39,468 nucleotides of DNA from Planctomycetota bacterium (GCA_016206515.1 JACQRN010000211.1:1-39468); one strand, 5' to 3'; positions 5,650 through 18,510 are shown, counted from the stretch's first letter. The notes: generated from the letters alone by a model not told the origin. A program made the numbers and translations.

Positions 5650-6099
5650 TCACGGCCCGGGCGGAGGGGAGGGCTTCAGGAGAAGTTCGAAGACCTTCGT
5701 GACGAGCTGGGAGACCTTGAACGGCTTGGGGACGAAGGCGTCGGGCTGGATCTTCGCCTGGCGGAGGCGGTCGAGACCCTTCGGGTGCGCGGTCATCATC
5801 ACCAGGCGGATGTGGCTCGTCCTGGGGTTGGTCTTGACGCGCTGGCACAGTTCCACGCCGTCGATCAACGGCATCATCATGTCCGTCAGGACGAGGACGG
5901 GGAGCTCCCGCTCGATCACCTCCAGCGCCGCCTTCCCGTCCGCCGCGTAGAGGATCCGGTACTGCCCGTCCTTTTCGAACTGCATCCGCAACAGATTCAG
6001 CAGGAGCCGGTTGTCCTCGGCCACGAGGATCGCGGGCGGGAGCGGCTTCCCCGCGGGGGGAGACTCGACCATGGGGGAAGTCTGGCAGACGGACCGCAT
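5650..6099 (-). CDS. single-domain response regulator, last gene of the filament operon
   Basis: Receiver motifs ILVAEDNRLLL, VLTDMMMPLIDG, VMMTAH, VPKPF. ATG at 6099 shares one base with the PilO-like TAA stop (TAATG). An alternative ATG is at 6072. The rest of the 396-aa ORF is an R/P/G-rich shadow. Confidence 0.8.
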   Translation of the reverse strand: MRSVCQTSPMVESPPAGKPLPPAILVAEDNRLLLNLLRMQFEKDGQYRILYAADGKAALEVIERELPVLVLTDMMMPLIDGVELCQRVKTNPRTSHIRLVMMTAHPKGLDRLRQAKIQPDAFVPKPFKVSQLVTKVFELLLKPSPPPGP

Positions 6100-6677
6100 T
6101 ACGGGAAGGTGTAAGCCTCCACCTGGAGGGCGCACCGCAACCCGTGCGGGCCCGCCTCGATCGACAGGGAGCGGAAGCAGACCGGCGGCGTCATCGTCGG
6201 CGCAAGCGGCCCGGCCTCTTCCAACCTCCGCAGGTACCCCACGACGGCGGGGAAGGGGCCCTCGAAGGAGATCTCTGCGAGGCGCTGCTGGAACTTCCCC
6301 ACCGGCTGCCCCCCCCGCTTGACCACCCCCGGCGTGGCGGCTAGATCGTAGGTGCGCCCCTTCAACAAGGTCTCGTACGACAGGAACCGGTCGGGGAGGC
6401 TCCCTTCGATCCGTTTCAGGAGCGCGCCGTTGACCGAGAGGATCTCCTGAAGACGCTCCACCTCCTGGCGCAACCCCTGCGGCGTGAACGGGAGCCTTCG
6501 CCCCTCCTGCAGGGCGGTCCAGCGGGGAATGATCGCGGCATAGACGTAGAAAAACGCGAACAGGCAGAACGCCCCCGCCTCGAACGCGACAAGCGTGCGA
6601 AGACGCACGGCCGGGACCCACGACGGCAGGCGCATACCCAGCAGGACGCGATCGAAACGGAGGATCCAGCGTCTCAC
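6099..6677 (-). CDS. pilO: PilO/GspM-like inner-membrane assembly protein
   Basis: GTG at 6677 in a GTGA overlap with the PilN stop. One N-terminal TM (LVAFEAGAFCLFAFFYVYAAII), then a coiled segment (LRQEVERLQEILSVNGALLKRIE) and a ferredoxin-like C-terminus. Position after pilM and pilN supports the call. An alternative ATG is at 6635. Confidence 0.7.
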   Translation of the reverse strand: MRRWILRFDRVLLGMRLPSWVPAVRLRTLVAFEAGAFCLFAFFYVYAAIIPRWTALQEGRRLPFTPQGLRQEVERLQEILSVNGALLKRIEGSLPDRFLSYETLLKGRTYDLAATPGVVKRGGQPVGKFQQRLAEISFEGPFPAVVGYLRRLEEAGPLAPTMTPPVCFRSLSIEAGPHGLRCALQVEAYTFP

Positions 6678-7270
6678 CGGGGCTCCTCGCCGGGAGGCGT
6701 CGGCATCGGCGCCCCGGCGATCTCCCGCACGAGGCACGGCGGGACAAGGGAACACTCGATCTCGACCTGCTGCCACCCGCTCTCGTCGTCCTGCAGGAGG
6801 CCCGGGGTGGCCGAGCGGATCCCGCCACGCCCCGATTCAAGATCCGCGAGAAATGCGACGAGCGCGGCGGAATCCTCGCACAGGACCGAGAGCCGCAGGG
6901 TGTCCGTATCCCGATCGATCTGGAGGGTCCGGAACCGGATCCGCCGGCCCGCCAGGGAGGCGGTATGCAGCAGGAGATCGGACCAGACGCGCCGGCCCGT
7001 GACGATCGTCATGACCCCCTGCGCCTCCAGGCGCATCCGCTCCAGCTCCCCCCGCTGGCGTTCCAACCGCGACATCCGCGCCAGCACCAAAGGATCGGTC
7101 GGCGCAAGGAGCCACCGCCGGTACACGAACCACCCCCCCTCCATCCCGAGCGCGGAGAGGGGAAGCAGGACGGCAAGGACCAGGAGGCTCAGCACGATCC
7201 CGTAATCGTCGCGCCTCCGGCGCAGTTCCCCCGGCAGGAGATTCAACGGCGGGATCCCCTGGTCGCTCAC
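6674..7270 (-). CDS. pilN: PilN-like inner-membrane assembly protein
   Basis: GTG at 7270 in a GTGA overlap with the PilM stop. N-terminal NLLP motif (IPPLNLLPGELRRRR), followed by a TM (IVLSLLVLAVLLPLSALG) and a coiled coil (RLERQRGELERMRLE). Confidence 0.75.
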   Translation of the reverse strand: MSDQGIPPLNLLPGELRRRRDDYGIVLSLLVLAVLLPLSALGMEGGWFVYRRWLLAPTDPLVLARMSRLERQRGELERMRLEAQGVMTIVTGRRVWSDLLLHTASLAGRRIRFRTLQIDRDTDTLRLSVLCEDSAALVAFLADLESGRGGIRSATPGLLQDDESGWQQVEIECSLVPPCLVREIAGAPMPTPPGEEPR

Positions 7271-8130
7271 GCCGCGATCCCATCGAGGACGCCGCAGCAG
7301 ACCGCGAACGCGGCGCCCGTCACCCCCGCCGGGAGCCCCCCCTGCGGGAGATCCGGCGGGTAGAGGATCGAGGCGGTCACCCCCAGGTGCATCTGCAGCG
7401 CGCCCGCGATGGCGTCGCTCGCGGCATCCCCGCACAACAGGACCAGGGAGACCGGCGCCAGGGGATGGCGCGTCTCGAAGTGGATCAGATGCCGCTCGCA
7501 GAACCGCAAGAGATCCTGCGCGCGGGGGGGCGCGGCGTGCCGCTGCACGCCGACCCCGCACAGCGCGTCGTTGCGCAGCAGCACGAGCACGGTGGCGTCG
7601 GCGCGCAGGTCGAGAAGCGCCAGGGCCTCCCCCCCCACCCTGGCCCCCAGCCGCGCGAGCGCCGTCGGCGCCACCTCGACGCGCTCGACCCACCCGCCCC
7701 GCGCGCGGACGGCTCGCGAGAGGGTCTCGACGAGCGCCCGGGGAGCCGATGCCAACAGATGCGGCGACGCCCCCTGAATCCCTCCCTCCTCCAGGGGGAA
7801 GGCGTCCAGAACGCTCTCCCGGGCGGCGTCGGGATGGACGCGCGAGACGTGCTCACGCAGGACGGCCTCCTGACCGCGCGTGTCCGGCGGGAGACGCAAG
7901 GTTCGGACCCAGGCAGAGGATCCCGAGAGCGCGAAATAACACGGGGCGCGACGCAGGGAGATCCGGTCCAGGAACCCCTCCAGGCGCCCCTCCCATCCCT
8001 CCTCGCCAGGGAGGATCCCCTCCGCGACGTGCGAGGCGACGATGGACACCCCCTGCGAGGTCCAGGACGCCTCGAGCGCGAGCGAGCGCGCATCGCCCAG
8101 GTCGATCCCCACCCCCCTTCGCGAAGGCAC
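7267..8130 (-). CDS. pilM: PilM-like actin-fold pilus assembly protein
   Basis: 287 aa. GTG start with a G-rich SD upstream (GAGAGGGGGGG). N-terminal GIDLG-type phosphate loop (VGIDLGDARSLAL). Size and position immediately upstream of pilN/pilO fit PilM. Confidence 0.75.
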   Translation of the reverse strand: MPSRRGVGIDLGDARSLALEASWTSQGVSIVASHVAEGILPGEEGWEGRLEGFLDRISLRRAPCYFALSGSSAWVRTLRLPPDTRGQEAVLREHVSRVHPDAARESVLDAFPLEEGGIQGASPHLLASAPRALVETLSRAVRARGGWVERVEVAPTALARLGARVGGEALALLDLRADATVLVLLRNDALCGVGVQRHAAPPRAQDLLRFCERHLIHFETRHPLAPVSLVLLCGDAASDAIAGALQMHLGVTASILYPPDLPQGGLPAGVTGAAFAVCCGVLDGIAA

Positions 8131-8166: not shown

Positions 8167-9081
8167 TCACTGGCGTTCGTCGTCCCCCATCAGCATCCGC
8201 GGGACCTCGCCGCCGCGCCCCGCCTCGACGAGATACCGCACCGCGTAGAGGACCACCTGGTCCGTCCGTCCCCGGGCGGTCCGCCGCAGGAACCCCCGCA
8301 GGTAGTACGCCGCGGCGGAAACCTCCGCGCGTTCCGCGTACAGGCGCCCGAGGCCGAAGAAGGCATCCGCCACGCCTGTGCGCGACACGCGGATCGCGCG
8401 CCGGTACGCGGCCTCCTCCTCGGCGCCCAGGGCGAGAATCGCACAGGCGGTCCCGAGATTCGCCCACGCCTCGGCGCGGTCGGGATCCAGGTCGACGGCC
8501 TCCTTCAGGATGCCGTGCGCCTCCTGCGCGAGGCCGTGGTCGAGATAGAGCACCCCCAGGTCGCTGCGGATCGCCCCGTCCCGGGGCCAGCGTTCGAACA
8601 TCTCCCGGTACATCCCCCGGGCACTCTCCAGGAACCGCTCGGAGCGGGCCACGTCGCCGCTGCGCAACGCCCGCAGGGAGAGGTGGCCGTAGACGGCCGC
8701 CAGCTCCAGCCTCGGACGCTTGGCGTCGGGATCCTGTGCGAGCGCCTCCCGATACTGGCGGATCGCCTCCTCCGGCTCGCCCAGGCAGCGGAAGGAGATC
8801 CATCCGAGCCATAGCCGGAGCGTCGCCCGACGCGCCTCGACCGGCTGGATGTCCAGGGCGTCGGCGATCCGGTCGCGCGCCTGATGAAAGTACCCCGTGG
8901 CCATGGCGGGCGGCCCCGCGACCCCCTCTGCGTAGAGTCGCATCGCGTCGGCGACGAGATGCTCGAACAACAGCTGCCGCGCGGCACGGTCCCGCTGCGG
9001 GGCCTCCCGCCGGGAGTCCGAGACGCATCCGCACAGGAGGATCAGACAGGCCACCCACGACAGGAGCTGAGCGCGCCTCAC
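8167..9081 (-). CDS. TPR-repeat lipoprotein (PilF/PilW/MshN-like candidate secretin accessory)
   Basis: GTG start in a GTGA overlap with the secretin stop. Signal peptide with a Cys-containing lipobox-like end (ACLILLCGC). Repeated TPR-like A..Y......G....A motifs throughout. Confidence 0.7.
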   Translation of the reverse strand: MRRAQLLSWVACLILLCGCVSDSRREAPQRDRAARQLLFEHLVADAMRLYAEGVAGPPAMATGYFHQARDRIADALDIQPVEARRATLRLWLGWISFRCLGEPEEAIRQYREALAQDPDAKRPRLELAAVYGHLSLRALRSGDVARSERFLESARGMYREMFERWPRDGAIRSDLGVLYLDHGLAQEAHGILKEAVDLDPDRAEAWANLGTACAILALGAEEEAAYRRAIRVSRTGVADAFFGLGRLYAERAEVSAAAYYLRGFLRRTARGRTDQVVLYAVRYLVEAGRGGEVPRMLMGDDERQ

Positions 9082-10562
9082 CGGGCCCCCTCCCCCGGGA
9101 GGAAGACCCGCGTCTCCGAGCCGGAAGGGATCTCCAGCCGGTCGAGCCCCACGCCGGACGGCGGCCCCATGACCCAGTCCTCCACGGCCCCCCGCTCGGG
9201 GACGATGCGCGCGGTGACGAAGATCAGGAGGCTTTTCGGCTCGCGCTGGATCTTGACATTCCGGAACGGCGCGCCGAGCACGGGGATGCGCCCGAGCCCC
9301 GGCAGCCGCGAGGTGTTGCGCACCTCGCGGTTGCGGTAGAGCCCGCCGATCACGATCGTCTCGCCGTCACGCAGGAGGACCTGCGTGTCCGCCTCCGTCG
9401 TGAGAACCCGCGGGTAGAGGTCCCCGACGAGCTCCCCGAGCTCGCTGGCGGCGGGGTGGACGATCAGGCTGATCCGTTCGTCGCCGACGATGCGCGGGAT
9501 CACCAGCAGCTGGATTCCGATGTTCTCGAACCCCGCCAGCTCCGTGGTCTGGAGCCCCGTCAGGGCGTTGACATTCGTCGTCACGATCGGGAACCGCTCC
9601 CCGATCAGGATGCTCGCCTCGAGGTTATCCACCGTGTCGATTTGGGGCGACGAGATCGTCTGCGCCCGGTCGTCCGTCTCCACAAGTTTCAGGACCGCCG
9701 ACATCTGGGTGGCGTTCAGCGTCCCGAAGGTGAAGGTGCCCCCGGTCGACGGGAAGTTCTCCAGGGTGAAGTCCGACAGCGTCGGCTGCCCCGCCCGGAA
9801 CGGCCAGCTGGTCGGGCGTTGCGCACCGCTCGCGCCCGCCTGCACGTTCCAGTCGATCCCGAGGGTGCGGTCGAAGTCGAGGGTGGTCTCGACCAGCCGC
9901 GCCTCGATCCGGATCTGTCGGGGCTGGACGTCGAGGCGCGCGAGCGTCGAGCGGATCACATCGAGCCGCTCCGGAACGTCCGTGACCGTCAGGACCCTCG
10001 ACAGGCCCGCGCGCGTCGTCTCCACCCCCCGCCGTTCGGTCGCCCCGCCGTAGGTGAACGCCGGCCGCCCCTCCGGCGCGAAGACCTGGACCTTCCCCTG
10101 CGCCGAGACGAGCCCTTCGAGCAGGGTCCTGACGTCCGAGGCCGCCAGGTACCGCAATTCGAACACCTCGGTCCGCGTGCGCGTCCCGAGGTTCTGGAGC
10201 GTGTCGATCCGGAGGATCTCCCCCTCCCGCACGAAACCGTAGGCGTTGACCGCCAGGATGGACCGCAGGACATCCTCCCACGGGACGTCGCGCAGGACGA
10301 CCGTGACGCGCCCCGAGACCTCGGGGCCGACCACCAGGTTCAGCCGGGCCGTGTGGGCCAGGCGCTTGAGCAGATCCTGCAGGTCCGCGTTCCTCACATC
10401 CATCGAGACGAGTTCCTCCGGCTGGGGGAGCGCCTCCGCCCCGCCGGCGGGGGCAGGCTCCTGCGCCCCGACGCCCCGGAGAACCAGCAGGAAGAGGAGG
10501 GACGAGGCGATCCGCCACGCCGCGAACCGCTTAAGCGTTTCGGACCCCCCCGGGGGCCTCAA
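9078..10562 (-). CDS. secretin (GspD/PilQ family outer-membrane channel)
   Basis: Secretin C-domain motifs: VIPRIVGDERISLIVHPAASE, VLLRDGETIVIGGL, SRLPGLGRIPVLGAPFRN, LLIFVTARIV. An N-terminal AMIN/N0-like region (VSMDVRNADLQDLLKRLA) is present. The proposed start is TTG at 10562 in a TTGA overlap with the upstream stop, giving the signal peptide LKRFAAWRIASSLLFLLVLRGVGA. The ORF-track start at 10853 is R/G-rich. Confidence 0.85.
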   Translation of the reverse strand: MRPPGGSETLKRFAAWRIASSLLFLLVLRGVGAQEPAPAGGAEALPQPEELVSMDVRNADLQDLLKRLAHTARLNLVVGPEVSGRVTVVLRDVPWEDVLRSILAVNAYGFVREGEILRIDTLQNLGTRTRTEVFELRYLAASDVRTLLEGLVSAQGKVQVFAPEGRPAFTYGGATERRGVETTRAGLSRVLTVTDVPERLDVIRSTLARLDVQPRQIRIEARLVETTLDFDRTLGIDWNVQAGASGAQRPTSWPFRAGQPTLSDFTLENFPSTGGTFTFGTLNATQMSAVLKLVETDDRAQTISSPQIDTVDNLEASILIGERFPIVTTNVNALTGLQTTELAGFENIGIQLLVIPRIVGDERISLIVHPAASELGELVGDLYPRVLTTEADTQVLLRDGETIVIGGLYRNREVRNTSRLPGLGRIPVLGAPFRNVKIQREPKSLLIFVTARIVPERGAVEDWVMGPPSGVGLDRLEIPSGSETRVFLPGEGAR

Positions 10563-11062
10563 CGTGCGCCCCTCCCCCCCGGCGCATCGAGGCCCGTGCC
10601 GGATGCAAGCCGCAACGTCCGGACCCCCTCGGCCCCCTCGATCTCCACGCACTGCGGCTCGATCGCCCGGACGCGCCAAGCCCCGAGCGGGTTGCCGACC
10701 TGCACCCACTCCCCGCTCACGAGCGCCCAGCGCCCGTCCCGATCCTCGTAGATCCCCTCCAGTTCCAGCGGTCCCCGGCGCGTGGGGATCTCCTCCCGGC
10801 GGACGAACGGATCCGGCGCCATCCCCTCCAGGGGGACCTGGGGTTCCACCCAAACGAGTTCATGCCCTGCGATGTCCGGGATCCGCGCGGAGGGGCGTGG
10901 CGCCTCCGGCGCCCGGAGAGGCGCGAGCGGCGATTCCGGTGCGCGTTCGTCCCCGCGGTCCGGCCATTCCCATCCCATCCAGAGCAGGGAGGTCAACACG
11001 CACAAGCCCAGGATCTTCTCCCTCTTCGAGAGGCGCCTCAGACGTTCGTCCAGTGCGCCCAT
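10559..11062 (-). CDS. PilP/GspC-like small periplasmic protein with an N-terminal membrane anchor
   Basis: 167 aa from ATG 11062. Anchor ILGLCVLTSLLWMGW, a Pro-rich linker, then a small beta domain (WALVSGEWVQVGNPLGAWRVRAIEPQCVEIEG). It lies directly upstream of the secretin. Confidence 0.6.
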   Translation of the reverse strand: MGALDERLRRLSKREKILGLCVLTSLLWMGWEWPDRGDERAPESPLAPLRAPEAPRPSARIPDIAGHELVWVEPQVPLEGMAPDPFVRREEIPTRRGPLELEGIYEDRDGRWALVSGEWVQVGNPLGAWRVRAIEPQCVEIEGAEGVRTLRLASGTGLDAPGGRGAR

Positions 11063-11076
11063 CCCGTCGGACTCTC

Positions 11077-11511
11077 TCAGTAGCCGGAATACGCGTCCCC
11101 CTCGGCGTCGTTCCCCGAGAGGTTCGGCTGGACCGCGTTCGTCGAGGAATTGTAGTACCAGCCGCCGGCGCCAGTCAGCGAGTTGGCGATCGCCGTCGAC
11201 GGCGTGATCCGCTCCTGCGGGATCTTCCGGATAAAGACCTTGCTGTTGGCGTCCGAGGTCAACTCGACCAGGGTCGAGGCCGTCGGGTACGCGCCGTTCT
11301 CCGCGAAGTAGAGCTCGAGCGCCGTCCGCAATTCCTGGAGGTTCTGCTTGGTGGCGGCGATCTTGGCCTTCGGAAGGTTGGAGGAGTACTTCGATACCAC
11401 GATCGTGGCGAGGATCCCGATGATGACGATGACGAAGATCAGCTCGATGAGCGTCACGCCCGCCGCGCCGCGCCCCGACCTGGCCCGCCCCCCCCGGAAC
11501 ACGCCCCGCAT
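11077..11511 (-). CDS. major pseudopilin/pilin, GspG-like (class III signal peptide)
   Basis: Prepilin motif G|VTLIELIFVIVIIGILA with Glu at +5. GspG-like segment KAKIAATKQNLQELRTALELYFAENGAYP. No Cys in the mature part. The 18-aa basic leader is MRGVFRGGRARSGRGAAG, from ATG 11511. Confidence 0.85.
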   Translation of the reverse strand: MRGVFRGGRARSGRGAAGVTLIELIFVIVIIGILATIVVSKYSSNLPKAKIAATKQNLQELRTALELYFAENGAYPTASTLVELTSDANSKVFIRKIPQERITPSTAIANSLTGAGGWYYNSSTNAVQPNLSGNDAEGDAYSGY

Positions 11512-11562
11512 TGTAACCGACAAACGCCGGGCGCAAGGCAAGCCCTGGCCCTCCGCGCCGTC

Positions 11563-12696
11563 TCAACGGACCTGCGTGGTGAGATCCGCCAGGGGGACGA
11601 AGATCGCCATCGCGACGAACCCGACCACCAGCGCCATGACCGCGATCATCAGGGGCTCGATGAGGCGCGTGGCGGTCTTGAGGATCAGCTCGACCTGTCG
11701 GTCGTAGAAGACGCTCACCTTCATCAGCATCTCGTCCAGCTTGCCGGTCTCCTCGCCGACCGTGATCATCTGGGAGACGAGGGGGGGGATGAAGCGGGCG
11801 GCGCGGACCGACTCCCCAAGCGATTGCCCCCCCTCGACGGAGCGCCGGACCGCCTCGATCTCGGAGGAGAGCAGATCGTTCCCGACGACGTCGCGCGCCA
11901 TCTCCAGCGTGGTCAGGAGCGGCACCCCTCCCGCCTGCAGCACCGACATCGTGTGCGCGAAGCGCGCCATGGAGATCTGCTGGGCGACCGGGCCGATCCC
12001 CGGCAGCGAGAGCCAGAGCCGGTCGATGAGGCGGTGGCCGCCCGGCGTCCGGTGCCACACGACCCCGGCGGCGGCCGTGCCGAGGACGACGGGAAGGATC
12101 CAGATCCAGTTCCCCTGCAGGAACGCACCCGAAAACATCAACCCGCGCGTGATCGCCGGGAGCTCGGCGCCGAGATCCGTGAAGACATCCATCAGCTTCG
12201 GCAGGGTGTAGACGAGCAGGAAGGCCGTCGCCCCGAGCGCGGAAAGGACGAGGAAGGCCGGGTAGGCCAGCGCGCCCCGCAGCTGTCCGCGCAGCTCGTA
12301 GCGGCGCTCGACGAACAGCGCGAGCTTCGAGCACATCACGTCGAGCGCCCCGCCCGTCTCCCCCGCCTGGATCAGGCTCGTGTAGAGGCGGTCGAAGACC
12401 CGCGGGTAGCGCGACATCGCGGAGGAGAGCGACGCCCCCCCCTCCACCTCCAGGCACACGGCTCGCAGCACGGAGGCCATCCGGACCGAGCGCGTCTGGG
12501 AAGCGCAGACCTCGATACACCGCAGCACGGGGACCCCGGCGTTCACGAGCGTCGAGAGCTGCCAGCTCATCGCCGCGACATCCCGCAGATCCACCCGCAC
12601 CCCCGGCAGCGGCGCTCGCGGCGCGGGCGTCCCGGAGCCCCCGGCCTGGGCGGGGCGCGCCCCCTGCGCCGGGGAATCCGGCCGCGCGGGGGTCAC
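11563..12696 (-). CDS. GspF/PilC-type inner-membrane platform protein
   Basis: GTG at 12696 in a GTGA overlap with the ATPase stop. Two GspF-type repeats (LSTLVNAGVPVLRCIEV...LIQAGETGG and MSVLQAGGVPLLTTLEM...MITVGEETGKLDEML) with three hydrophobic segments. Confidence 0.85.
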   Translation of the reverse strand: MTPARPDSPAQGARPAQAGGSGTPAPRAPLPGVRVDLRDVAAMSWQLSTLVNAGVPVLRCIEVCASQTRSVRMASVLRAVCLEVEGGASLSSAMSRYPRVFDRLYTSLIQAGETGGALDVMCSKLALFVERRYELRGQLRGALAYPAFLVLSALGATAFLLVYTLPKLMDVFTDLGAELPAITRGLMFSGAFLQGNWIWILPVVLGTAAAGVVWHRTPGGHRLIDRLWLSLPGIGPVAQQISMARFAHTMSVLQAGGVPLLTTLEMARDVVGNDLLSSEIEAVRRSVEGGQSLGESVRAARFIPPLVSQMITVGEETGKLDEMLMKVSVFYDRQVELILKTATRLIEPLMIAVMALVVGFVAMAIFVPLADLTTQVR

Positions 12697-15600
12697 TCCT
12701 GCGCCACCCGCACGACCTCCTCGGGCGTCGTGACGCCCAAGACCGACATCTCGAACCCGCTCTCCCACAACGTCTTCATCCCCTCGGCGCGTGCCTGGGC
12801 GGCGATCGGGGAGGCGCCGGAGCCGCCCATCAGCAGCTTCCGGACCGGCTCGGTCACCTCGAGAAGTTCGAAAATCGCGCCCCGGCCCTTGTAGCCGCTC
12901 CCGTGGCACCGCGGGCACCCCTTCCCGTGCGTAAAATCGAATTCCACCCCGTCCACGCGCGCCAGGAGCGCCTCGATCACGGCGCGCGGCGGCTGGTAGA
13001 TCTCTCCGCACGCGGTGCAGACCTTTCGTACGAGCCTCTGCGCCAGGACGCCGACCACGGTCGTGGCGATCGAGTAGGGCTTCGCCCCCATCTCGACGAG
13101 GCGGATGAGCGCGCTGGCGGCGTCGTTCGTGTGGAGCGTCGAGAGGACGAGGTGCCCGGTCATCGCGGCCTGGCAGGCGATCTGCACGGTCTCCGCGTCG
13201 CGCATCTCGCCGATCATGATCACGTTCGGATCCTGCCGCAGGATCGAGCGCAGCCCCGTCGCGAAGGTGACCCCCGCCTTCGGGTTGATCTGCGTCTGGT
13301 TGATCCCCTTCAGCTGATACTCGACCGGGTCTTCGACCGTGATGATGTTCCTCTCGGCCGTATTGAGGACATTCAGCGACGCGTAGAGCGTGGTCGTCTT
13401 CCCCGACCCGGTCGGGCCGGTCACCAGGACGATCCCGTGGGGGGAATGGATCAGGCGCTCGTAGCGCCCGCGCATGTCGGGGTCCGAAAGGACGTCGGCC
13501 AGCTTCACCCTCGCCTGGGACTGGTCGAGGAGCCGCATGACGACCTTCTCGCCGTAGATCCCCGGCAGCGTCGAGACGCGGATGTCGACCCTCCGCCCCT
13601 GCACCTTCACGTAGATCCGCCCGTCCTGCGGGGCTCTACGCTCGGCGATGTCCAGGTTCGCCATCACCTTGACGCGACTGACCAGCGCCGGCAGCACGCT
13701 CTTCGGCGGGGACTTCTCCTCCTGGAGCATCCCGTCGACGCGGAACCGGACGCGCAGCGTCTTCTCCTCCGGCTCGAGGTGGATGTCGCTCGCGCCCGCG
13801 AGGACCGCCTGTCCGATGACCAGGTTCACCAGACGCACCACCGGCCCCCCCTGCCCCTCAAGCTCGGAGTACTCGACCTCCTTCTGCGCCTCCTCCTCGA
13901 TCACCTCGACGTCGCCCCCGCCCCCCTCGCCCCCCTCGATCTCGCTGAGCAGGTCCTGCATCGCGGCGCCGGGATCGGAGGAGGACGCCCCCCCCTCCTC
14001 GATCCGCCCGCGCAGCTCCCGGAGGACCCAGCGGGGAGCCACCATCCACTCCCCCGGCCCGCCGAGACGATCCTCGACCTGATCGAGGGCGAACGGATCC
14101 GTCGGATCCGCGGTGACCGCCACGGAGAACGCCTTGTCAGGCCCGCGTGCAACGCTGCGCAGGAGAAGGATCCCCGCCTCCTGAACCCAGGGCTCCGCGA
14201 CGGGCGCCACCTCTCCCGCCGGATACGGGAACGCCTCCGGCCCCGGCAGGAACGGCAGCCCCATCTCGCTGGCGAGGAACTGCAGGATCTTCCCCTCCGC
14301 GACGCCAGCCTTCTCGTGCAACCAGTGGGCGAACCCCGTCTGCGGCCATCCCCCCTCCCCCTCGAGACGCGAACGGATCTCCTCCGTGAGAACACCCTGC
14401 TGGACGAGACGCGCCAGAAGGGGGGGACGCTCCTGCCGGACGAGACGCGCCAGGAGGGGGACGCGCCCCCCCTTGGGGTGAACCTTTCGCGTCAGGGTCT
14501 CCCCATCGACATCCGCGTCGCCCAGGAGATCTCCGGAAACGACTTCCGCAGGGGGCGGAACCTCGGCACCCCCCGCAGGGTCCGCCTCCAGCAGATCCCG
14601 GACTTCCGCCTCCGCCGGTGGATCTTCGGAACCGGGCAATATCGCCCGGTCAAGCACCTCCTGCTCCAGCGCTCCCGCCGCCTCCTCCGGCTCCGCCGCC
14701 GCCTCCTCCCCACCGGCAGGCGTGTCGGTTTCCGAGGCGACCGTCGCCCCCTGTGGGGCCACGACAACCCCGGGAGTCGGAGGATCCTCCGGGGCGGGTC
14801 GAGCCGGCTCGTCCGGCACGGGCGGGGGGGGCATTGCAAGCGGCTCCGGGCTGGCTGCGGGCGCATCGGACAGCGCTCCGGCACCCTTCCGCGAAGCCTC
14901 GACCCTCGCAAGCGCCCCCGCCTGCGCCTCGCGCGCCTCGACCTGGAGGCGCGCGAGGATCGCTTGCCTCTCGAACCTGGCGGCGACCTCCCCGCGCAGG
15001 GATGCGAGCGCAAGGCGCCCCTCCTCCGCGCCCGCCATCCACGCGCCACGCAACGACGCGACCCGCGTCTGGATCGCCTGGACGTGCGACGAAAGCGCCC
15101 CCAGTTCCTGCTGGACCGCATCGGAATGACGGCCGGACTCCTCCGCGGCAGCCTGGAGCGAGCGAACCTGCGCCTCCGTCCGCGCCGCCTGCCACTCCAA
15201 CGCGCTCGCTCGCGCGCGCGCGGCCTCCCCCTCCCGCCGCAAAGCCTCGATCCGATCCACCCACTCCATGACACGCGAGGCGATACGGTTCTGGGCCCCC
15301 TGCACCTCCCTCTGCAAGCCCTCCAGCGCCACGAGCCGTCCGGAGATCCCCTCGGCGCCGCGGGCGATCTCCTCGGACGCCTGCTCCCGACACTCCACCC
15401 TTCGCCGCAGTTCCGAGAGTTCCTCGCCAAGCCTCTCCGAGCGCCCGGCCGCCTCCGACAGGTCCCGCAGCCGGCGCTCCACCTTCTCGATCGCGCCGTG
15501 GAGCGACCGCCTCCCCTCCTCCGACTGTCCCGACAGCACGCCCTCGATTTCCTGCCGCGCGACCTTGAGGTCCTGCGCCCACTCCCCCGGGAACCCCGCG

Positions 15601-15983
15601 AGGCGCGAGGCGACGTCCCGCTCCAGATTCGCGCGCGCGGCGCGTTCACGTTCCCACGCGGCCTTCTGCATCTGCTGCTGGGCGCCGATCCCGTCCTCCA
15701 GACCTTTCATGCGCGAGGCGAGCGGGTAGGCGATCTCCCAGGGGAGCGCTTCCAGGCGCTGCTGAAGCCCCGACACCGCCCCGGCAACCTCGACGCGCAG
15801 CGAGTGGAGCAGACCCTCGCGCAGCGCGGCGATCCGATCCTCGCGCAGGCCTCCCGTCGGTTCGAGCCCCGCCGCGACGTACCCTTGTCGCATCAGGAGG
15901 GGGATCTCCCGCTCCAGGAAGTCGGCGACGTCCCGTTCGAGACGGCGGACGATCCCCTCCCCGACAGGCTCCTCCGGCGTCAT
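12693..15983 (-). CDS. GspE/PilB-family secretion ATPase with a ~500-aa N-terminal coiled-coil/acidic extension
   Basis: C-terminal ~590 aa carry a T2SSE_N-like region (LLARLVQQGVLTEE...LASEMGLPF), Walker A GPTGSGKTT (13392-13418), VEDPVEY, IMIGEMRD, GHLVLSTLHTN and a tetracysteine CTAC...CPRCHGSGYKGR. ATG 15983 has GGAGG 11 nt upstream. There is no in-frame stop between the extension and the core. Confidence 0.85.
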   Translation of the reverse strand: MTPEEPVGEGIVRRLERDVADFLEREIPLLMRQGYVAAGLEPTGGLREDRIAALREGLLHSLRVEVAGAVSGLQQRLEALPWEIAYPLASRMKGLEDGIGAQQQMQKAAWERERAARANLERDVASRLAGFPGEWAQDLKVARQEIEGVLSGQSEEGRRSLHGAIEKVERRLRDLSEAAGRSERLGEELSELRRRVECREQASEEIARGAEGISGRLVALEGLQREVQGAQNRIASRVMEWVDRIEALRREGEAARARASALEWQAARTEAQVRSLQAAAEESGRHSDAVQQELGALSSHVQAIQTRVASLRGAWMAGAEEGRLALASLRGEVAARFERQAILARLQVEAREAQAGALARVEASRKGAGALSDAPAASPEPLAMPPPPVPDEPARPAPEDPPTPGVVVAPQGATVASETDTPAGGEEAAAEPEEAAGALEQEVLDRAILPGSEDPPAEAEVRDLLEADPAGGAEVPPPAEVVSGDLLGDADVDGETLTRKVHPKGGRVPLLARLVRQERPPLLARLVQQGVLTEEIRSRLEGEGGWPQTGFAHWLHEKAGVAEGKILQFLASEMGLPFLPGPEAFPYPAGEVAPVAEPWVQEAGILLLRSVARGPDKAFSVAVTADPTDPFALDQVEDRLGGPGEWMVAPRWVLRELRGRIEEGGASSSDPGAAMQDLLSEIEGGEGGGGDVEVIEEEAQKEVEYSELEGQGGPVVRLVNLVIGQAVLAGASDIHLEPEEKTLRVRFRVDGMLQEEKSPPKSVLPALVSRVKVMANLDIAERRAPQDGRIYVKVQGRRVDIRVSTLPGIYGEKVVMRLLDQSQARVKLADVLSDPDMRGRYERLIHSPHGIVLVTGPTGSGKTTTLYASLNVLNTAERNIITVEDPVEYQLKGINQTQINPKAGVTFATGLRSILRQDPNVIMIGEMRDAETVQIACQAAMTGHLVLSTLHTNDAASALIRLVEMGAKPYSIATTVVGVLAQRLVRKVCTACGEIYQPPRAVIEALLARVDGVEFDFTHGKGCPRCHGSGYKGRGAIFELLEVTEPVRKLLMGGSGASPIAAQARAEGMKTLWESGFEMSVLGVTTPEEVVRVAQE
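14401..14466 (-). repeat. in-frame 36-nt tandem duplication inside the ATPase gene
   Basis: The core GGACGAGACGCGCCAG occurs at 14403-14418 and 14439-14454 (+ strand text). It encodes PLLARLVRQERP / PLLARLVQQGVL at the entry of the T2SSE_N-like region. Confidence 0.75.
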
Positions 15984-15990
15984 CGCCCCA

Positions 15991-16392
15991 CTACCTCCAG
16001 GATACCCGCGTGACGCCCCCCCCCACGCCCACCGTGACCACGACCGTACGCGAGGCATTCCCCCACGTCCCGGTCGAGGCGATCTCGACGTTCCCGGAGA
16101 CGTCCGCGAGGCTCGTCGTGTACGTCCCCGTGACGCCGTCGGCGGTGGCGAAACTCTTCCCCGAGAACCCCGTCCTCCAGGAGGCGTTGCCGATCAGCTC
16201 CCGGATCGCGTCCTCCGCGCCCGCCTCGGCGCAGTAGAGCGCCATCGCCCCTCGCCACTCGTTGTCGACAATCTTGACGTGCCGCCGGGCGTTCTGGAGG
16301 AACGTCACGCAGATCGAGAACAGGATCACCATCGTCCCGAGCGCCAGGACGAACACCGCCCCGCGGGAGCCCTCCCTCCCTTTCACGCTCAT
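15991..16392 (-). CDS. PilX/GspK-like minor pseudopilin
   Basis: 133 aa from ATG 16392, in an ATGA overlap with the upstream stop. Non-canonical N-terminal hydrophobic helix GAVFVLALGTMVILFSICVTFL, followed by ALYCAEAGAEDAIRELI as in PilX_N-type proteins. Only the last third of the 539-aa ORF looks coding. Confidence 0.65.
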   Translation of the reverse strand: MSVKGREGSRGAVFVLALGTMVILFSICVTFLQNARRHVKIVDNEWRGAMALYCAEAGAEDAIRELIGNASWRTGFSGKSFATADGVTGTYTTSLADVSGNVEIASTGTWGNASRTVVVTVGVGGGVTRVSWR

Positions 16393-18134
16393 CGCAACCG
16401 GACCGCCGTAGTCCCCGACACGCTGCGCGTCCCGTCGGAGACCGTCAGGCTCACCTGGACCACTTCGGAGGCGATGGTCACGTCGTCCCAGACCCCCAGC
16501 GCGCCGTCCGTGACCGTCTGCCAGGAGACGGTTCCGTCGTCGAACGTGCCACCGGCATGGCTGTGGATCTGCGCGTACCCGACCCCCGAATCGAGGTAGA
16601 CGAGCACCCCGGCGGTGCCGAGCCGCATCTTCACCTTGTACGCGGTTCCGGCGGTCCACGCCGCCAGCGAGTCGGTGGCCTGCTGGGAGATCCCCCCCAG
16701 GTTGTAGAAAAAGCGGACGGTGTTGTCGCTGCGGAACTCGACCGCGTAGCCGGTGTCCGACGCATCCCAGGTGCCGTACTGCAGCGCGTAGGCGGTCCCC
16801 GCCGCGCCCCCCCCCCCGGCGCCGACGTTCGGGAACGAGGTCCGCGCCGTGTTCGAGAAACGGACGTCGTCGAGCATGCCGTCGAGGTACGCGGCGCCCT
16901 GGAGGCTCCCCAGGGTGAGCGACTCCCCGTTCGTCCAGTCTCCCATTCGCGCCGCCGAGGCCTCCTGCGTCCCGTTGACGTACAACCGCATCGTCGTCCC
17001 GTCGTACGTCGCTGCCACGTGGGTCCATGTCCCGGCCGACACCTGCGTCGATCCCAGCGCCGTCGAACCGTTCCCGGCCCCCGTGTCCACGCGGAACTGG
17101 AACTTCCGGCTGCTCTCCAGCGTCAGTTCGAACCCGTCGTCCGACCCCGACCTCTTCCCGGCGATCCCCTGCACGCTCCCCGACCCCACCGTGTCGAACT
17201 TCACCCACGCCTCGATCGTGAAGCTCGCGGGATCGAGCACCGCATCGTCCGATATCTGGAGGTGGTCGTTCGTCCCATCGAACGACAGGCCGTTGCCGAA
17301 CTTCCCCGCCGTCCACTCGGTGCCCAGCATGTTCTGCAGCGGGCCGTCGCGGTTGTTCGCGCTCGCGTCGTCCGCGGACGTCCCTCCCGTCTCGTCCAGG
17401 CGCAGCAGCATCACCGTGTTCGCATCGACGGTCAGCGCGGTGTCGGAGGTCCCGGCGCCGCCGGGGGTGTAGGTGGCCTCGACGACCAGGCCGGACCGGC
17501 GGAAGGTCCCGGCCGAGCGGATCCCGTTCGCCTCGGAACTCCCGTTGCCGGTCACGCGCATCGTGGAGAGCGACTCGACAACGTTCGACCCCGAATCGGT
17601 CTTCGTCCACTTCGCGGTGTCGATCGCGTCGTCGTTGAAGTCGTCGGTCTGCGACTCGTACGTGGCGCGGAACGCCGTGACCCCCTGCGCAAGATCCTGC
17701 GCGGTCCCGTACCCGCCCCCCGTGTCGGTCGAGCGCTGCAGCGTCGAGCCGGAAATCGCGTACTTCACCTTCTCCGTCCCGGAGCCGGTGTCCAGGAGGT
17801 ACGTCGTGGTCAGTTCCAGCAGGGTGGTGTTCGCCGCGTTCACGGCGGTCCCGTAGCGCCCCTCCCGCTCGATCCTCGACAGCGCGACCCGCAGATTCTG
17901 CAGAAGATCCCCCCTCCCGTTATGGTCGCGCCAGACGCGCACCCCCATCGCCAGGGCACCCGCCATGGACGTCGAGATCACCCCGACGATCGCCATGGCC
18001 ATCACCAGTTCGACGAGCGTCAGCCCCGGCGGACGCGGGCGCTTACAACCCGTGACAGAACGTCGCAGAAGATCCCGCGAAGCGCGAGGCGTCCAGCGTC
18101 CAGCGGGGTTCTGCAACAGCCTCTCACTCGGCAT
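16389..18134 (-). CDS. large minor pseudopilin with a LamG/concanavalin-like domain (GspJ position)
   Basis: Prepilin motif G|LTLVELVMAMAIVGVIS. The LamG_3-like core is LSFDGTNDHLQISDDAVLDPASFTIEAWVKFD...GTWTHVAATYDGTTMRLYVNG...LDGMLDDVRFSN. The start is uncertain: ATG 18134 gives a 37-aa leader and an 11-nt overlap with the upstream gene. Confidence 0.8.
   Translation of the reverse strand: MPSERLLQNPAGRWTPRASRDLLRRSVTGCKRPRPPGLTLVELVMAMAIVGVISTSMAGALAMGVRVWRDHNGRGDLLQNLRVALSRIEREGRYGTAVNAANTTLLELTTTYLLDTGSGTEKVKYAISGSTLQRSTDTGGGYGTAQDLAQGVTAFRATYESQTDDFNDDAIDTAKWTKTDSGSNVVESLSTMRVTGNGSSEANGIRSAGTFRRSGLVVEATYTPGGAGTSDTALTVDANTVMLLRLDETGGTSADDASANNRDGPLQNMLGTEWTAGKFGNGLSFDGTNDHLQISDDAVLDPASFTIEAWVKFDTVGSGSVQGIAGKRSGSDDGFELTLESSRKFQFRVDTGAGNGSTALGSTQVSAGTWTHVAATYDGTTMRLYVNGTQEASAARMGDWTNGESLTLGSLQGAAYLDGMLDDVRFSNTARTSFPNVGAGGGGAAGTAYALQYGTWDASDTGYAVEFRSDNTVRFFYNLGGISQQATDSLAAWTAGTAYKVKMRLGTAGVLVYLDSGVGYAQIHSHAGGTFDDGTVSWQTVTDGALGVWDDVTIASEVVQVSLTVSDGTRSVSGTTAVRLR
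16807..16817 (-). repeat. G11 homopolymer (C11 on + strand) inside the LamG pseudopilin coding sequence
   Basis: Encodes GAGGGGAAG (GCC GGG GGG GGG GGC). The length is cross-checked against the opposite-strand ORF translation (RRAPPPGAD). Confidence 0.8.
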
Positions 18135-18510
18135 TGGCGCGGTAGGCGACCAGGCTGCGCGAACTGGGGCGGTTCGACAGGCCGGTCCAGGTGATGGTCG
18201 CGACGATCTTCTTGAGATTCGCCTGCGGGGTCGTGACGACCGTCTCGACCTGGAAGGAGGCGTCCTCGGGTACCGCCGCGATCGTGACGGACGCGACCTC
18301 CGCATACGGCCGCGCGATCTGCGCCTCCACCTCCCGCCGCAGGTACCCGTGCGCCAAGGTGCGCTGCTTGGCGATCCGCTCCGACAGGATGCCGACCTGG
18401 AGGATTTCGGTCGCCGAGACGATCGAGATCGACAGCAACATCAGGGCGAAGAGAACCTCCACCAGGGTAAACCCCTCCGCAAGCCGCCCGACGGGCCGCG
18501 CCGTCGCCAC
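18124..18510 (-). CDS. GspI/PilV-like minor pseudopilin
   Basis: GTG at 18510 gives the leader VATARPVGRLAEG followed by G|FTLVEVLFALMLLSISIV (Glu +5). 128 aa, with small beta-rich C-terminal part. Confidence 0.75.
   Translation of the reverse strand: MATARPVGRLAEGFTLVEVLFALMLLSISIVSATEILQVGILSERIAKQRTLAHGYLRREVEAQIARPYAEVASVTIAAVPEDASFQVETVVTTPQANLKKIVATITWTGLSNRPSSRSLVAYRANAE

What the first reader, a model, noticed from the sequence alone, without database searches (positions are those of the whole stretch)
12693..15983. Secretion/pilus ATPase doubled in size by an N-terminal coiled-coil plus acidic proline-rich extension
The GspE/PilB-type core occupies only the C-terminal ~590 aa. It comprises a T2SSE_N-like region, Walker A GPTGSGKTT, Asp/His boxes and a tetracysteine CTAC...CPRC. 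In the same frame, with no stop, it is preceded by about 400 aa of E/R/A/L/Q-rich heptad-like sequence (for example LRDLSEAAGRSERLGEELSELRRRVECREQASEEIARGAEGISGRLVALEGLQREVQGAQNRIASRV and ALEWQAARTEAQVRSLQAAAEE). A ~110-aa acidic Pro/Ala/Glu linker follows (PPPPVPDEPARPAPEDPPTPG...EEAAAEPEEAAGALEQE). Canonical PilB/GspE/MshE proteins are roughly 500-600 aa. I know of extra GSPII/MshEN copies (Thermus PilF) but not of a long coiled-coil arm. ATG 15983 has GGAGG 11 nt upstream, which supports initiation at the far N-terminus.
Basis: partly seen in the sequence, partly recalled or inferred. Interest (0 to 1): 0.75.

Follow-up and report, generated by a model that had tools for sequence, protein, structure and literature searches.

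The report
Secretion/pilus ATPase with fused coiled-coil arm
A planctomycete pilus/secretion motor ATPase carries a helical coiled-coil arm on a long floppy linker that matches nothing in the databases, while its closest known relative encodes a giant coiled-coil protein as a separate gene in the same spot, so the arm is probably a built-in scaffold or docking partner; this is an unusual variant of a well-known enzyme, not a new kind of system.

Summary
ORF 15983..12693 (-) encodes 1096 aa. Residues ~522-1096 are a complete GspE/PilB-type ATPase. Residues 7-372 are predicted all-helical, and 373-521 form an acidic Pro/Ala/Glu-rich disordered linker. Two details need correcting. Only residues ~155-372 show real heptad periodicity (a sharp 3.50-residue peak); residues 1-150 are amphipathic helices without it. 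The linker is about 150 aa, not 110.

The fusion looks genuine. The strong ribosome-binding site sits at ATG 15983, 7 nt after the upstream gene's stop. The frame has coding-type GC3 from codon 1. No credible start exists near the core.

The extension is an orphan: an exhaustive phmmer search of 1.84 billion representative proteins found only itself.

The closest relative (P0007, 698 aa, 52% identical) has a separate 1280-aa coiled-coil gene immediately upstream of its ATPase, in a syntenic position after a LamG pseudopilin. No coiled-coil neighbour or fusion was seen in 80 other genomic loci or in 120 other homologues. Those homologues often carry other N-terminal modules (TPR, kinase, extra MshEN) on similar linkers.

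Best reading: a fused scaffold or recruitment module for the motor ATPase of a type IV filament machine. This function is inferred, not shown. It is a new variant of a known kind, of moderate interest.

The parts
12693..15983 (-). Whole gene: 1096-aa coiled-coil/linker/GspE-PilB-type ATPase fusion
   Evidence: One uninterrupted ORF, identical to NCBI protein P0001.
15994..15998 (-). GGAGG ribosome-binding site, followed by 10 nt and then ATG 15983; the upstream gene's TAG is at 15993-15991
   Evidence: Sequence read. It is the only SD of 5 nt or more in front of any in-frame start in codons 1-620.
15521..15965 (-). Residues ~7-154: amphipathic helices without heptad periodicity (helices 7-38, 47-79, 82-128, 133-151); fold unknown
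   Evidence: AF2 single-sequence model, pLDDT 45-63. Hydropathy peak at 3.6-3.9 residues.
14868..15520 (-). Residues ~155-372: heptad coiled-coil region. Two very long helices (182-283 and 288-372) probably pack as an antiparallel hairpin.
   Evidence: Hydropathy peak at 3.50 residues, reached by 0 of 300 shuffles. Heptad heuristic 143 residues against a shuffle mean of 46. pLDDT 70-93. Foldseek's top (non-significant) matches are antiparallel helical hairpins.
14421..14867 (-). Residues 373-521: acidic Pro/Ala/Glu-rich disordered linker (net charge -20). Contains M384 (ATG 14834), a possible weak internal start.
   Evidence: Composition. pLDDT mostly below 50 and little secondary structure. 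Weak GGAG 9 nt before ATG 14834.
14396..14467 (-). 36-nt tandem duplication encoding RVPLLARLVRQE/RPPLLARLVQQG at the linker/core boundary
13848..14420 (-). Residues 522-712: N-terminal domain(s) of the GspE/PilB core (GSPII/MshEN-like, divergent) plus an acidic Gly/Glu hinge
   Evidence: The NCBIfam PilB model and Geobacter PilB align from residue 522/524. Pfam MshEN matches 621-665 but below its cutoff (17.4 against 23.1 bits).
12693..13847 (-). Residues 713-1096: N2 plus C-terminal ATPase domains with Walker A (856-864), Asp box, Walker B, His box and the tetracysteine C989/C992/C1023/C1026
   Evidence: Pfam T2SSE E 5e-138. PDB EpsE 4pht E 2e-122. Invariant columns.
15991..16395 (-). Upstream 134-aa gene with an N-terminal hydrophobic helix (minor pseudopilin/PilX-like). 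Its stop lies 7 nt before the ATPase start.
   Evidence: tblastn hits lie next to pseudopilin genes in L004, L056, L002 and L033. No Pfam hit.
16389..18305 (-). LamG-domain pseudopilin; it anchors the synteny with locus L001
   Evidence: Laminin_G_3 E 2e-34 and N_methyl. 61% identical over 207 aa to the LamG gene of L001.
11563..12834 (-). GspF/PilC platform protein (the true start is probably near the ATPase stop)
   Evidence: T2SSF E 1e-58, two stretches.
11077..11541 (-). GspG-type major (pseudo)pilin
   Evidence: T2SSG and N_methyl.
9078..10853 (-). Secretin (GspD/PilQ type)
   Evidence: Secretin E 1e-37, Secretin_N, STN and N0.
8167..9081 (-). TPR protein with a lipobox-like N-terminus (candidate pilotin)
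   Evidence: TPR families; sequence.
6099..8130 (-). Three ORFs that look PilM-, PilN- (LNLLP motif) and PilO-like by eye only
   Evidence: Sequences. No Pfam or PDB sequence hit. This is inference.

Best explanation
This is the assembly (extension) ATPase of a planctomycetal type IV filament machine, either T2SS-like or type IV pilus-like. Its operon also encodes pseudopilins, a GspF/PilC platform protein, a GspG-type pilin, a secretin and a TPR protein.

The catalytic part is an ordinary, complete GspE/PilB hexameric motor subunit. A ~370-aa helical module has been fused to its N-terminus. That module consists of a ~150-aa helical head followed by a ~220-aa heptad coiled coil, probably an antiparallel hairpin about 15 nm long. 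A ~150-aa flexible, acidic Pro/Ala/Glu linker joins it to the core.

I propose that the module is a tethered scaffold or recruitment element. Through coiled-coil self-association or binding to a partner, it would hold ATPase subunits at or near the cytoplasmic base of the machine, or control when they dock there. The long linker would leave the hexamer free to work.

In the nearest relative the same job would fall to a separate giant coiled-coil protein encoded directly upstream of the ATPase. The window gene would then be the fused ('Rosetta stone') form of that partnership.

Shown: the architecture, the start site, the coding frame, the orphan status, the operon context and the adjacent coiled-coil gene in the relative.

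Inferred: that the two coiled-coil regions are functionally equivalent, and what they do.
For: - Complete GspE/PilB core at residues 522-1096.
- Heptad periodicity at 3.50 residues over 155-372, and long, confidently predicted helices.
- Disordered acidic linker.
- Start at 15983 with GGAGG, 7 nt after the upstream stop, and no alternative start with an SD near the core.
- Coding-type GC3 from codon 1; the other open frame translates to junk.
- No internal repeats that could produce a chimeric assembly.
- Operon of pseudopilins, ATPase, GspF, GspG and secretin.
- The closest relative P0007 (52% identity over 96% of the core) sits in locus L001 behind a 1280-aa coiled-coil ORF that ends 26 nt before its start. 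That ORF in turn follows a LamG gene 61% identical to the window's.
- A coiled-coil neighbour or fusion is absent from 80 GTDB loci and from the 120 other homologues, so the association is specific to this small lineage rather than a chance feature of such operons.
- The recurrent design 'N-terminal protein-interaction module, then a Pro-rich linker, then the GspE core' (TPR, kinase, MshEN) among the nearest homologues shows the N-terminus is a usual place to attach regulatory or recruitment modules.
- Precedents for separate coiled-coil or TPR proteins that bind or recruit PilB. HmpF co-precipitates PilB in Synechocystis (PMC7002697). SgmX (TPR) and FrzS (coiled coil) are needed for polar PilB localisation in Myxococcus (PMC11580455).
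Against: - No sequence homologue of residues 1-521 exists among 1.84 billion representatives or in the word-indexed search. Conservation, and hence selection on the extension, cannot be shown.
- Similarity between the extension and the L001 coiled-coil protein is not significant (BLASTP E 0.018; shuffle z 1.2-3.7, which heptad periodicity alone can explain).
- The link rests on a single relative.
- P0007 keeps its own ~110-aa N-terminal helix plus linker, so the fusion point is not a simple loss of a stop codon.
- No coiled-coil predictor such as MARCOIL or DeepCoil was available. The AF2 model used a single sequence (mean pLDDT 60).
- Assembly and read coverage could not be checked.
- No experimental data on function exist.
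Confidence: 0.55

Rival explanations
1. Two products from one reading frame. The functional ATPase starts internally at M384 (ATG 14834) and is 713 aa long, like the 698-aa relative. The upstream 383 codons are in effect a separate coiled-coil gene that has lost its stop codon. The cell would then make both a fusion and a free ATPase, or mostly the short form.
For: A start at M384 gives 713 aa, with the linker at the N-terminus, close to P0007's 698 aa and its N-terminal linker. A weak GGAG lies 9 nt upstream. In L001 the two genes are separate.
Against: There is no stop codon anywhere between 15983 and 12693, so ribosomes starting at 15983 must make the fusion. The only strong SD is at 15983. 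No promoter-like or terminator-like site lies inside the gene. GC3 is continuous.
Confidence: 0.15
2. The extension is a lineage-specific, weakly constrained add-on: a recent accidental fusion with, or capture of, coiled-coil-like sequence. It would have no specific role, and the adjacent coiled-coil gene in L001 would be coincidence.
For: No homologue in 1.84 billion proteins. No demonstrable homology to the L001 coiled-coil protein. Only one supporting relative. Coiled-coil sequence evolves and arises easily.
Against: Composition is Glu/Leu/Gln-rich, unlike the Arg/Pro/Gly-rich off-frame products of this 70% GC DNA. Heptad phase is kept over ~220 residues. Single-sequence pLDDT reaches 93. 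GC3 is as high as in the catalytic domain. Coiled-coil ORFs are otherwise absent next to 80 related ATPase genes, which makes chance co-occurrence in the two closest relatives unlikely.
Confidence: 0.2
3. Assembly or sequencing artefact. A frameshift, a missed stop or a chimeric join in the MAG contig has merged a coiled-coil gene with the ATPase gene.
For: The sequence comes from a metagenome-assembled genome. The relative has two genes. GC3 dips to 0.68-0.80 in the linker.
Against: The dip is explained by Pro/Ala/Glu/Gly codons, which have high GC1. The alternative frame translates to Arg-rich junk. No repeats longer than 36 nt exist in or around the gene that could seed a chimera. P0007 and many other homologues carry the same kind of Pro/Ala/Glu-rich linker at the N-terminus of the ATPase, so the linker belongs to the ATPase.
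Confidence: 0.07

Closest known systems
GspE/EpsE (type II secretion ATPase) and PilB (type IVa pilus extension ATPase), e.g. Vibrio EpsE (PDB 4pht, 1p9r) and Geobacter PilB (5tsg)
   Same: Residues 522-1096 align end to end with these proteins (E 1e-120 range). They share the N-terminal domain, N2 domain, Walker A and B, Asp and His boxes and the tetracysteine zinc site. The operon holds the usual partners GspF/PilC, GspG-type pilin, pseudopilins and secretin.
   Different: These proteins are about 500-590 aa and have no coiled-coil arm or 150-aa acidic linker. The window protein scores below the equivalog cutoffs of both NCBIfam models (566 < 630 for GspE; 528 < 676 for PilB), so it cannot be assigned to either subfamily.
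P0007 with its upstream 1280-aa coiled-coil gene (JGI metagenome 3300045502, locus L001)
   Same: This is the closest relative of the core (52% identity, 96% coverage). It has an acidic, partly Pro/Ala/Glu-rich low-complexity linker at the ATPase N-terminus. It shows the same local gene order: LamG pseudopilin, then coiled-coil sequence, then ATPase core.
   Different: The coiled-coil protein is a separate gene (stop, 26 nt, ATG, in a different frame). It is 3.4 times longer, is internally duplicated, and is not detectably homologous to the window's extension. L001 lacks the 134-aa gene.
N-terminally extended GspE/PilB homologues in uncultivated phyla: TPR-fused (Armatimonadota, ~740-830 aa), Ser/Thr-kinase-fused (~875-896 aa), and extra MshEN/DUF4388-fused (~830-866 aa)
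   Same: They share the design principle: an N-terminal interaction or signalling module, then a long Pro/Ala-rich linker, then a complete ATPase core. The ATPase domain is 45-58% identical.
   Different: The module is a recognisable Pfam domain in those proteins. Here it is an orphan helical/coiled-coil region, and the protein is 200-350 aa longer.
Thermus thermophilus PilF (PDB 6f8l, 5it5)
   Same: A large (~890 aa) PilB-family ATPase whose extra mass is N-terminal. Its ATPase domain aligns at E 1e-112.
   Different: PilF's extension consists of repeated GSPII/MshEN domains. The window's residues 1-520 show no MshEN match.
Separate coiled-coil or TPR partners of PilB: HmpF (cyanobacteria), and FrzS and SgmX (Myxococcus xanthus)
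   Same: They are coiled-coil-rich or TPR proteins needed for PilB localisation or activity. HmpF co-precipitates PilB (PMC7002697). SgmX and FrzS recruit PilB to the leading pole (PMC11580455). This is a functional analogy for a coiled-coil module that positions the extension ATPase.
   Different: They are independent polypeptides encoded elsewhere. There is no sequence relationship to the window's extension: no Pfam or NCBIfam family match beyond weak generic coiled-coil hits. A direct SgmX-PilB contact has not been detected, according to that paper.

Membership tests
GspE/PilB-type T2SS/T4P assembly ATPase (Pfam PF00437 T2SSE) | T2SSE ATPase domain above the Pfam gathering score | tested here: met
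   460 bits against a cutoff of 24.9, residues 713-1092.
GspE/PilB-type T2SS/T4P assembly ATPase (Pfam PF00437 T2SSE) | Walker A GPTGSGKT(T/S), Asp box, Walker B and His box | tested here: met
   GPTGSGKTTT at 856-865, VEDPVEY at 883-889, DPNVIMIGEMRD at 918-929 and TGHLVLSTLHTN at 942-953. These are largely conserved with P0007; the exceptions are N920/V921 in the Walker B stretch.
GspE/PilB-type T2SS/T4P assembly ATPase (Pfam PF00437 T2SSE) | Tetracysteine zinc motif of the GspE/PilB (not PilT) branch | tested here: met
   C989-x2-C992 ... C1023-x2-C1026.
GspE/PilB-type T2SS/T4P assembly ATPase (Pfam PF00437 T2SSE) | N-terminal GSPII/MshEN (T2SSE_N) domain | tested here: inconclusive
   Pfam MshEN 17.4 bits, below the 23.1 cutoff, residues 621-665. 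However, full-length PilB models and Geobacter PilB align from residue 522/524.
GspE equivalog (TIGR02533) / PilB equivalog (TIGR02538) | Score above the NCBIfam equivalog cutoff | tested here: not met
   566.3 < 630.25 for GspE and 528.3 < 675.65 for PilB. It belongs to the superfamily, but the subfamily is unassigned.
TadA/CpaF (the name NCBI gives this protein) | Best match to CpaF/TadA-type ATPases | tested here: not met
   CpaF chains match the P-loop region only, at E 6e-8, against E 1e-120 for GspE/PilB. The TadA-family NCBIfam model scores 46 bits against a cutoff of 373.
Thermus PilF-like multi-GSPII ATPases | Extra N-terminal GSPII/MshEN copies | tested here: not met
   No MshEN hit in residues 1-520. 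PilF aligns only to 693-1091.
Coiled coil (structural class) | Heptad (3.5-residue) hydrophobic periodicity in long uninterrupted helices | tested here: met
   For residues 155-372: peak at 3.50, 0 of 300 shuffles, and helices 182-283 and 288-372. Not met for residues 7-128 (peak 3.6-3.9). Dedicated predictors were not available.
Coiled coil (structural class) | Oligomeric state and orientation (hairpin versus intermolecular) | not testable with these tools
   Only a monomer single-sequence model is available. Foldseek's best, non-significant matches are antiparallel hairpins.
Rosetta-stone fusion of ATPase with its neighbouring coiled-coil partner | Fused part homologous to the separately encoded partner in relatives | tested here: not met
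   BLASTP E 0.018 and shuffle z of 3.7 or less. Only position and structural class correspond.
Rosetta-stone fusion of ATPase with its neighbouring coiled-coil partner | Syntenic position of the separate partner gene | tested here: met
   L001 has LamG (61% identical), then the 1280-aa coiled-coil gene, then the ATPase. This is one relative only.

The most novel reading that the evidence does not exclude
The coiled-coil arm and the giant coiled-coil protein of the sister lineage may represent an unrecognised class of dedicated cytoskeleton-like accessory factor for type IV filament motors in planctomycete-related bacteria. Such a factor would physically position, cluster or gate the extension ATPase, here caught in fused form. 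A more speculative version is that the tethered antiparallel hairpin docks into or onto the ATPase hexamer as an autoregulatory stalk, as FliJ/YscO hairpins do with type III secretion ATPases.
Probability: 0.25. Interest if true: 0.6.

Novelty: new variant of a known kind. Interest (0 to 1): 0.42.

Why it matters
How extension ATPases of type IV pili and type II secretion systems are brought to the machine and licensed to work there is an open question. In the studied cases (Myxococcus SgmX/FrzS/SopA, cyanobacterial HmpF, FimX/PilZ) this depends on separate and poorly understood partner proteins.

A natural fusion of the ATPase to a coiled-coil module, together with a sister lineage that encodes a coiled-coil giant next to the ATPase, gives a concrete and testable pairing in a phylum with unusual cell biology. 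It also adds to a pattern visible in the database hits: the N-terminus of this ATPase family, via a long Pro-rich linker, is a common attachment site for interaction and signalling modules.

The catalytic part and the operon are ordinary. The extension has no relatives and no functional data, so the significance remains modest until more members or experiments appear.

Tried and rejected
1. Word-indexed search with residues 1-373 found nothing. Exhaustive phmmer with residues 1-521 against 1.84 billion representatives found only the query itself.
2. The full-length word-indexed search was swamped by low-complexity words and returned only itself plus one weak hit.
3. The longest high-scoring hits to the core (P0003-P0006, P0008, P0009, P0011; 967-1004 aa) first looked like extended relatives. 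They are tandem double ATPases, so they were rejected as comparators.
4. The GTDB scan returned 80 loci, none above ~53% identity (tblastn). Acidimicrobiia loci show ~360-400 extra upstream codons, but with little or no heptad signal (at most 34 residues). These are probably over-extended ORFs in high-GC DNA.
5. The first metagenome scan, using the clade-specific peptides AC[GL]E[IP]YQP and RVDGVEF[DE], matched 483 stretches but found no relative. The second, using a DNA pattern for VLPA[LI]VSR[VI]KVMA, returned L082 and L083. In both, the ATPase gene is cut off at the contig end so its N-terminus is missing. L083 is only 44% identical, so they are uninformative.
6. Foldseek of the extension model against the PDB gave no match better than E 0.8, only generic helical hairpins.
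7. Smith-Waterman tests with shuffling, of the extension against the L001 coiled-coil protein and of the linker against the P0007 N-terminus, were not significant.
8. The idea that the arm replaces a missing GspL/PilM anchor was weakened. ORFs downstream of the secretin look PilM/N/O-like by eye, although no Pfam or PDB sequence match confirms this.
9. A hidden frameshift in the linker was rejected. The apparently better frame only reflects high GC1 of Pro/Ala/Glu/Gly codons, and it translates to Arg-rich junk.
10. Two literature searches found no description of a coiled-coil-fused GspE/PilB.
Full report
**1. What is there**

On the minus strand an ORF runs from ATG 15983 to the stop at 12693 and encodes 1096 aa. 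The same 1096-aa protein is already in NCBI. It comes from a metagenome-assembled 'Planctomycetes bacterium' on a 39468-bp contig, where it is named 'Flp pilus assembly complex ATPase component TadA' (P0001).

The preceding gene is a 134-aa protein with an N-terminal hydrophobic helix, at 15991-16395. It ends with TAG at 15993-15991. GGAGG sits at 15998-15994, followed by 10 nt and then the ATG.

The window is about 70% GC, so long open frames prove little by themselves. I therefore checked codon-position composition. GC3 is 0.85-0.92 and GC2 0.43-0.57 across residues 1-350, the same pattern as in the catalytic domain. The competing open frame (14492-15649) translates to Arg-rich junk.

In the linker GC3 drops to 0.68-0.80. 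The frame that then looks 'better' is simply codon position 1 of Pro/Ala/Glu/Gly codons.

Among all in-frame ATG/GTG/TTG codons in the first 620 positions, only ATG 15983 has an SD core of 5 nt or more. There is no ATG between codons 385 and 573, and M574 already lies inside the conserved N-terminal domain. No promoter-like or terminator-like site lies inside the gene. The longest internal repeat is a 36-nt tandem duplication.

**2. Anatomy**

*Core.*
- Pfam T2SSE matches residues 713-1092 (E 5e-138).
- The NCBIfam PilB model covers 522-1095 and the GspE model 622-1093.
- Solved structures agree: Vibrio EpsE aligns to 688-1096, Geobacter PilB residues 28-584 to 524-1094, and Thermus PilF to 693-1091.
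- Walker A (856-865), the Asp box, Walker B, the His box and the four cysteines C989/C992/C1023/C1026 are present.
- Scores fall below the equivalog cutoffs for both GspE and PilB.
- CpaF/TadA matches are weak and limited to the P-loop, so the 'TadA' name is not supported.

*Linker.* Residues 373-521 are 19% Pro, 17% Ala and 13% Glu, with net charge -20. They are predicted to be largely disordered.

*Extension.*
- A single-sequence AlphaFold2 model makes residues 7-372 entirely helical.
- It has two very long helices, 182-283 and 288-372, at pLDDT 70-93. Confidence is lower (45-63) for residues 1-180.
- A Fourier analysis of hydropathy gives a sharp maximum at exactly 3.50 residues for 155-372 (power 133 against a shuffle mean of 47; 0 of 300 shuffles reach it).
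- For 7-128 the maximum lies at 3.6-3.9 residues.
- A simple heptad heuristic marks 158-214 and 232-317 (143 residues against a shuffle mean of 46).
- The 'coiled coil' is therefore about 220 aa, preceded by about 150 aa of other amphipathic helices.
- Foldseek against the PDB gives nothing significant (best E 0.84). Its top matches are antiparallel helical hairpins: LipC, HP0958, CT398, YscO and p85 iSH2. This fits a hairpin of the two long helices.

**3. Context**

The gene sits in a minus-strand operon of a type IV filament machine. The genes, in order, are:
- a GspH-like protein;
- an N-methyl pseudopilin;
- a LamG-domain pseudopilin (16389-18305);
- the 134-aa gene;
- the ATPase;
- GspF/PilC (T2SSF, E 1e-58);
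- a GspG-type pilin;
- an unassigned 169-aa protein;
- a secretin;
- a TPR protein.

Three further ORFs look PilM-, PilN- (LNLLP motif) and PilO-like by eye. They have no Pfam or PDB sequence match, so this is only my reading.

**4. Relatives**

*The extension is an orphan.* The word-indexed search with residues 1-373 found nothing. An exhaustive phmmer search of residues 1-521 against 1.84 billion representative proteins found only the query.

*The core has thousands of relatives.* The closest is P0007 (698 aa, 52% identity over 96% of the core). The ~1000-aa proteins that score highest are tandem double ATPases and are irrelevant here.

*N-terminal modules are common in the family.* Many of the next-best hits carry other N-terminal modules joined by long Pro/Ala-rich linkers. 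These include TPR repeats (Armatimonadota, ~740-830 aa), Ser/Thr kinase domains (~875-896 aa) and extra MshEN/DUF4388 domains (~830-866 aa). An N-terminal add-on on a flexible linker is thus a recurrent theme. None of these modules is a coiled coil: the window protein has the highest heptad score of all 122 proteins fetched.

*The P0007 locus is the key observation.*
- On its 6.8-kb contig (L001) the ATPase is preceded by a separate 1280-aa ORF that is almost pure coiled coil, with 675 residues in heptad windows. This ORF ends 26 nt before the ATPase start and lies in a different frame.
- It is in turn preceded by a LamG gene 61% identical to the window's LamG pseudopilin.
- The position directly 5' of the ATPase core is therefore occupied by coiled-coil sequence in both members of this small lineage. 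It is fused in one and separate in the other.
- P0007 itself begins with a ~30-aa helix and a ~80-aa acidic linker.
- Homology between the two coiled-coil regions cannot be shown (BLASTP E 0.018; shuffle z 1.2-3.7, which heptad periodicity alone can produce).

*Nothing comparable elsewhere.* Among 80 GTDB loci holding related ATPase genes, none has a heptad-rich N-terminal extension or a coiled-coil-rich ORF of comparable size within 4 kb of the ATPase; only two short ORFs with about 70 heptad residues each turned up. Both metagenome scans failed to add clade members.

**5. Mechanism**

*Shown.*
- A complete assembly-type ATPase is covalently linked, through ~150 disordered acidic residues, to a helical head plus a ~220-aa coiled coil.
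- It lies in an operon for a type IV filament machine.
- Its nearest relative has a coiled-coil giant encoded next door.

*Inferred.* The arm is a tethered scaffold or recruitment module. [quoted passage not shown] The linker would leave the hexamer mechanically free.

*Precedents* exist as separate proteins:
- The coiled-coil-rich HmpF co-precipitates PilB and is required for motility in Synechocystis (PMC7002697).
- In Myxococcus the TPR protein SgmX and the coiled-coil protein FrzS are needed for polar PilB localisation (PMC11580455).
- The TPR-fused ATPases among the hits form a parallel to SgmX in the same way.

*Rivals.*
- An additional or alternative internal start at M384. This would give a 713-aa protein very like P0007. 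It has a weak GGAG 9 nt upstream.
- A weakly constrained lineage-specific add-on.
- An assembly artefact.

I rate the scaffold/recruitment reading at about 0.55.

**6. Comparison and novelty**

The protein is a member of the GspE/PilB ATPase superfamily, and all catalytic hallmarks were tested and met. Its subfamily is unassigned. It is not a TadA/CpaF protein and not a PilF-like multi-GSPII protein.

The coiled-coil arm is a new domain-architecture variant. I found no description of it in two full-text literature searches and no second example in the sequence searches.

It is not a new kind of system. The extension has no homologues and no functional data, and support for a conserved partnership rests on one relative.

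Interest is moderate. It offers a natural, testable handle on how extension ATPases are positioned, in a poorly studied phylum.

Noticed in passing
window 25319-31987 (+): A 2222-aa ORF with GC3 0.90 that is very Leu/Ala-rich (18% each). It has many transmembrane-like stretches and no meaningful Pfam domain, so it looks like a giant polytopic membrane protein of unknown function.
   Followed up: partly
window 14396-14467 (-): A 36-nt tandem duplication encoding RVPLLARLVRQE/RPPLLARLVQQG, exactly at the boundary between the linker and the first domain of the ATPase core. It is absent from P0007.
   Followed up: partly
window 6099-8130 (-): Three consecutive ORFs downstream of the TPR gene resemble PilM (GIDLG..., VEVAPTALARL), PilN (LNLLPGE plus a TM helix) and PilO by eye. 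None has a Pfam hit even at E 5, and the one queried against the PDB (the PilM-like ORF) has no meaningful sequence hit.
   Followed up: partly
proteins P0003-P0006, P0008, P0009, P0011 (database hits, not in the window): The highest-scoring hits to the ATPase core are ~1000-aa proteins made of two complete GspE-type ATPase units in tandem, each with its own Walker A and tetracysteine. They come from low-GC metagenomic organisms.
   Followed up: no
proteins P0013-P0046, P0019/P0049/P0071, P0036/P0042/P0043/P0052 (database hits): GspE/PilB cores fused N-terminally to TPR repeats, Ser/Thr kinase domains or extra MshEN/DUF4388 domains, always through long Pro/Ala-rich linkers. The TPR fusions recall the separate TPR activator SgmX of Myxococcus.
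   Followed up: partly
L001 677-4519 (+): The 1280-aa coiled-coil protein next to P0007 contains a long internal duplication. For example, ERQRLEEAL[AT]VSRERAGQ[AT]ER[EK]LQAS and EEERKKEGERRES...LLVKEQAEALGRER each occur twice, several hundred residues apart.
   Followed up: no
window 16389-18305 (-) versus L001 11-655: The window's LamG pseudopilin is 61% identical to L001's over 207 aa, but it carries about 140 extra C-terminal residues. The window also has a 134-aa gene (15991-16395) that L001 lacks between LamG and the coiled-coil sequence.
   Followed up: partly
window 12693-15983 (-), NCBI record name: The public annotation calls this protein 'Flp pilus assembly complex ATPase component TadA'. 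The matches found here are to GspE/PilB (E ~1e-120), not to CpaF/TadA (E ~6e-8, P-loop only).
   Followed up: yes
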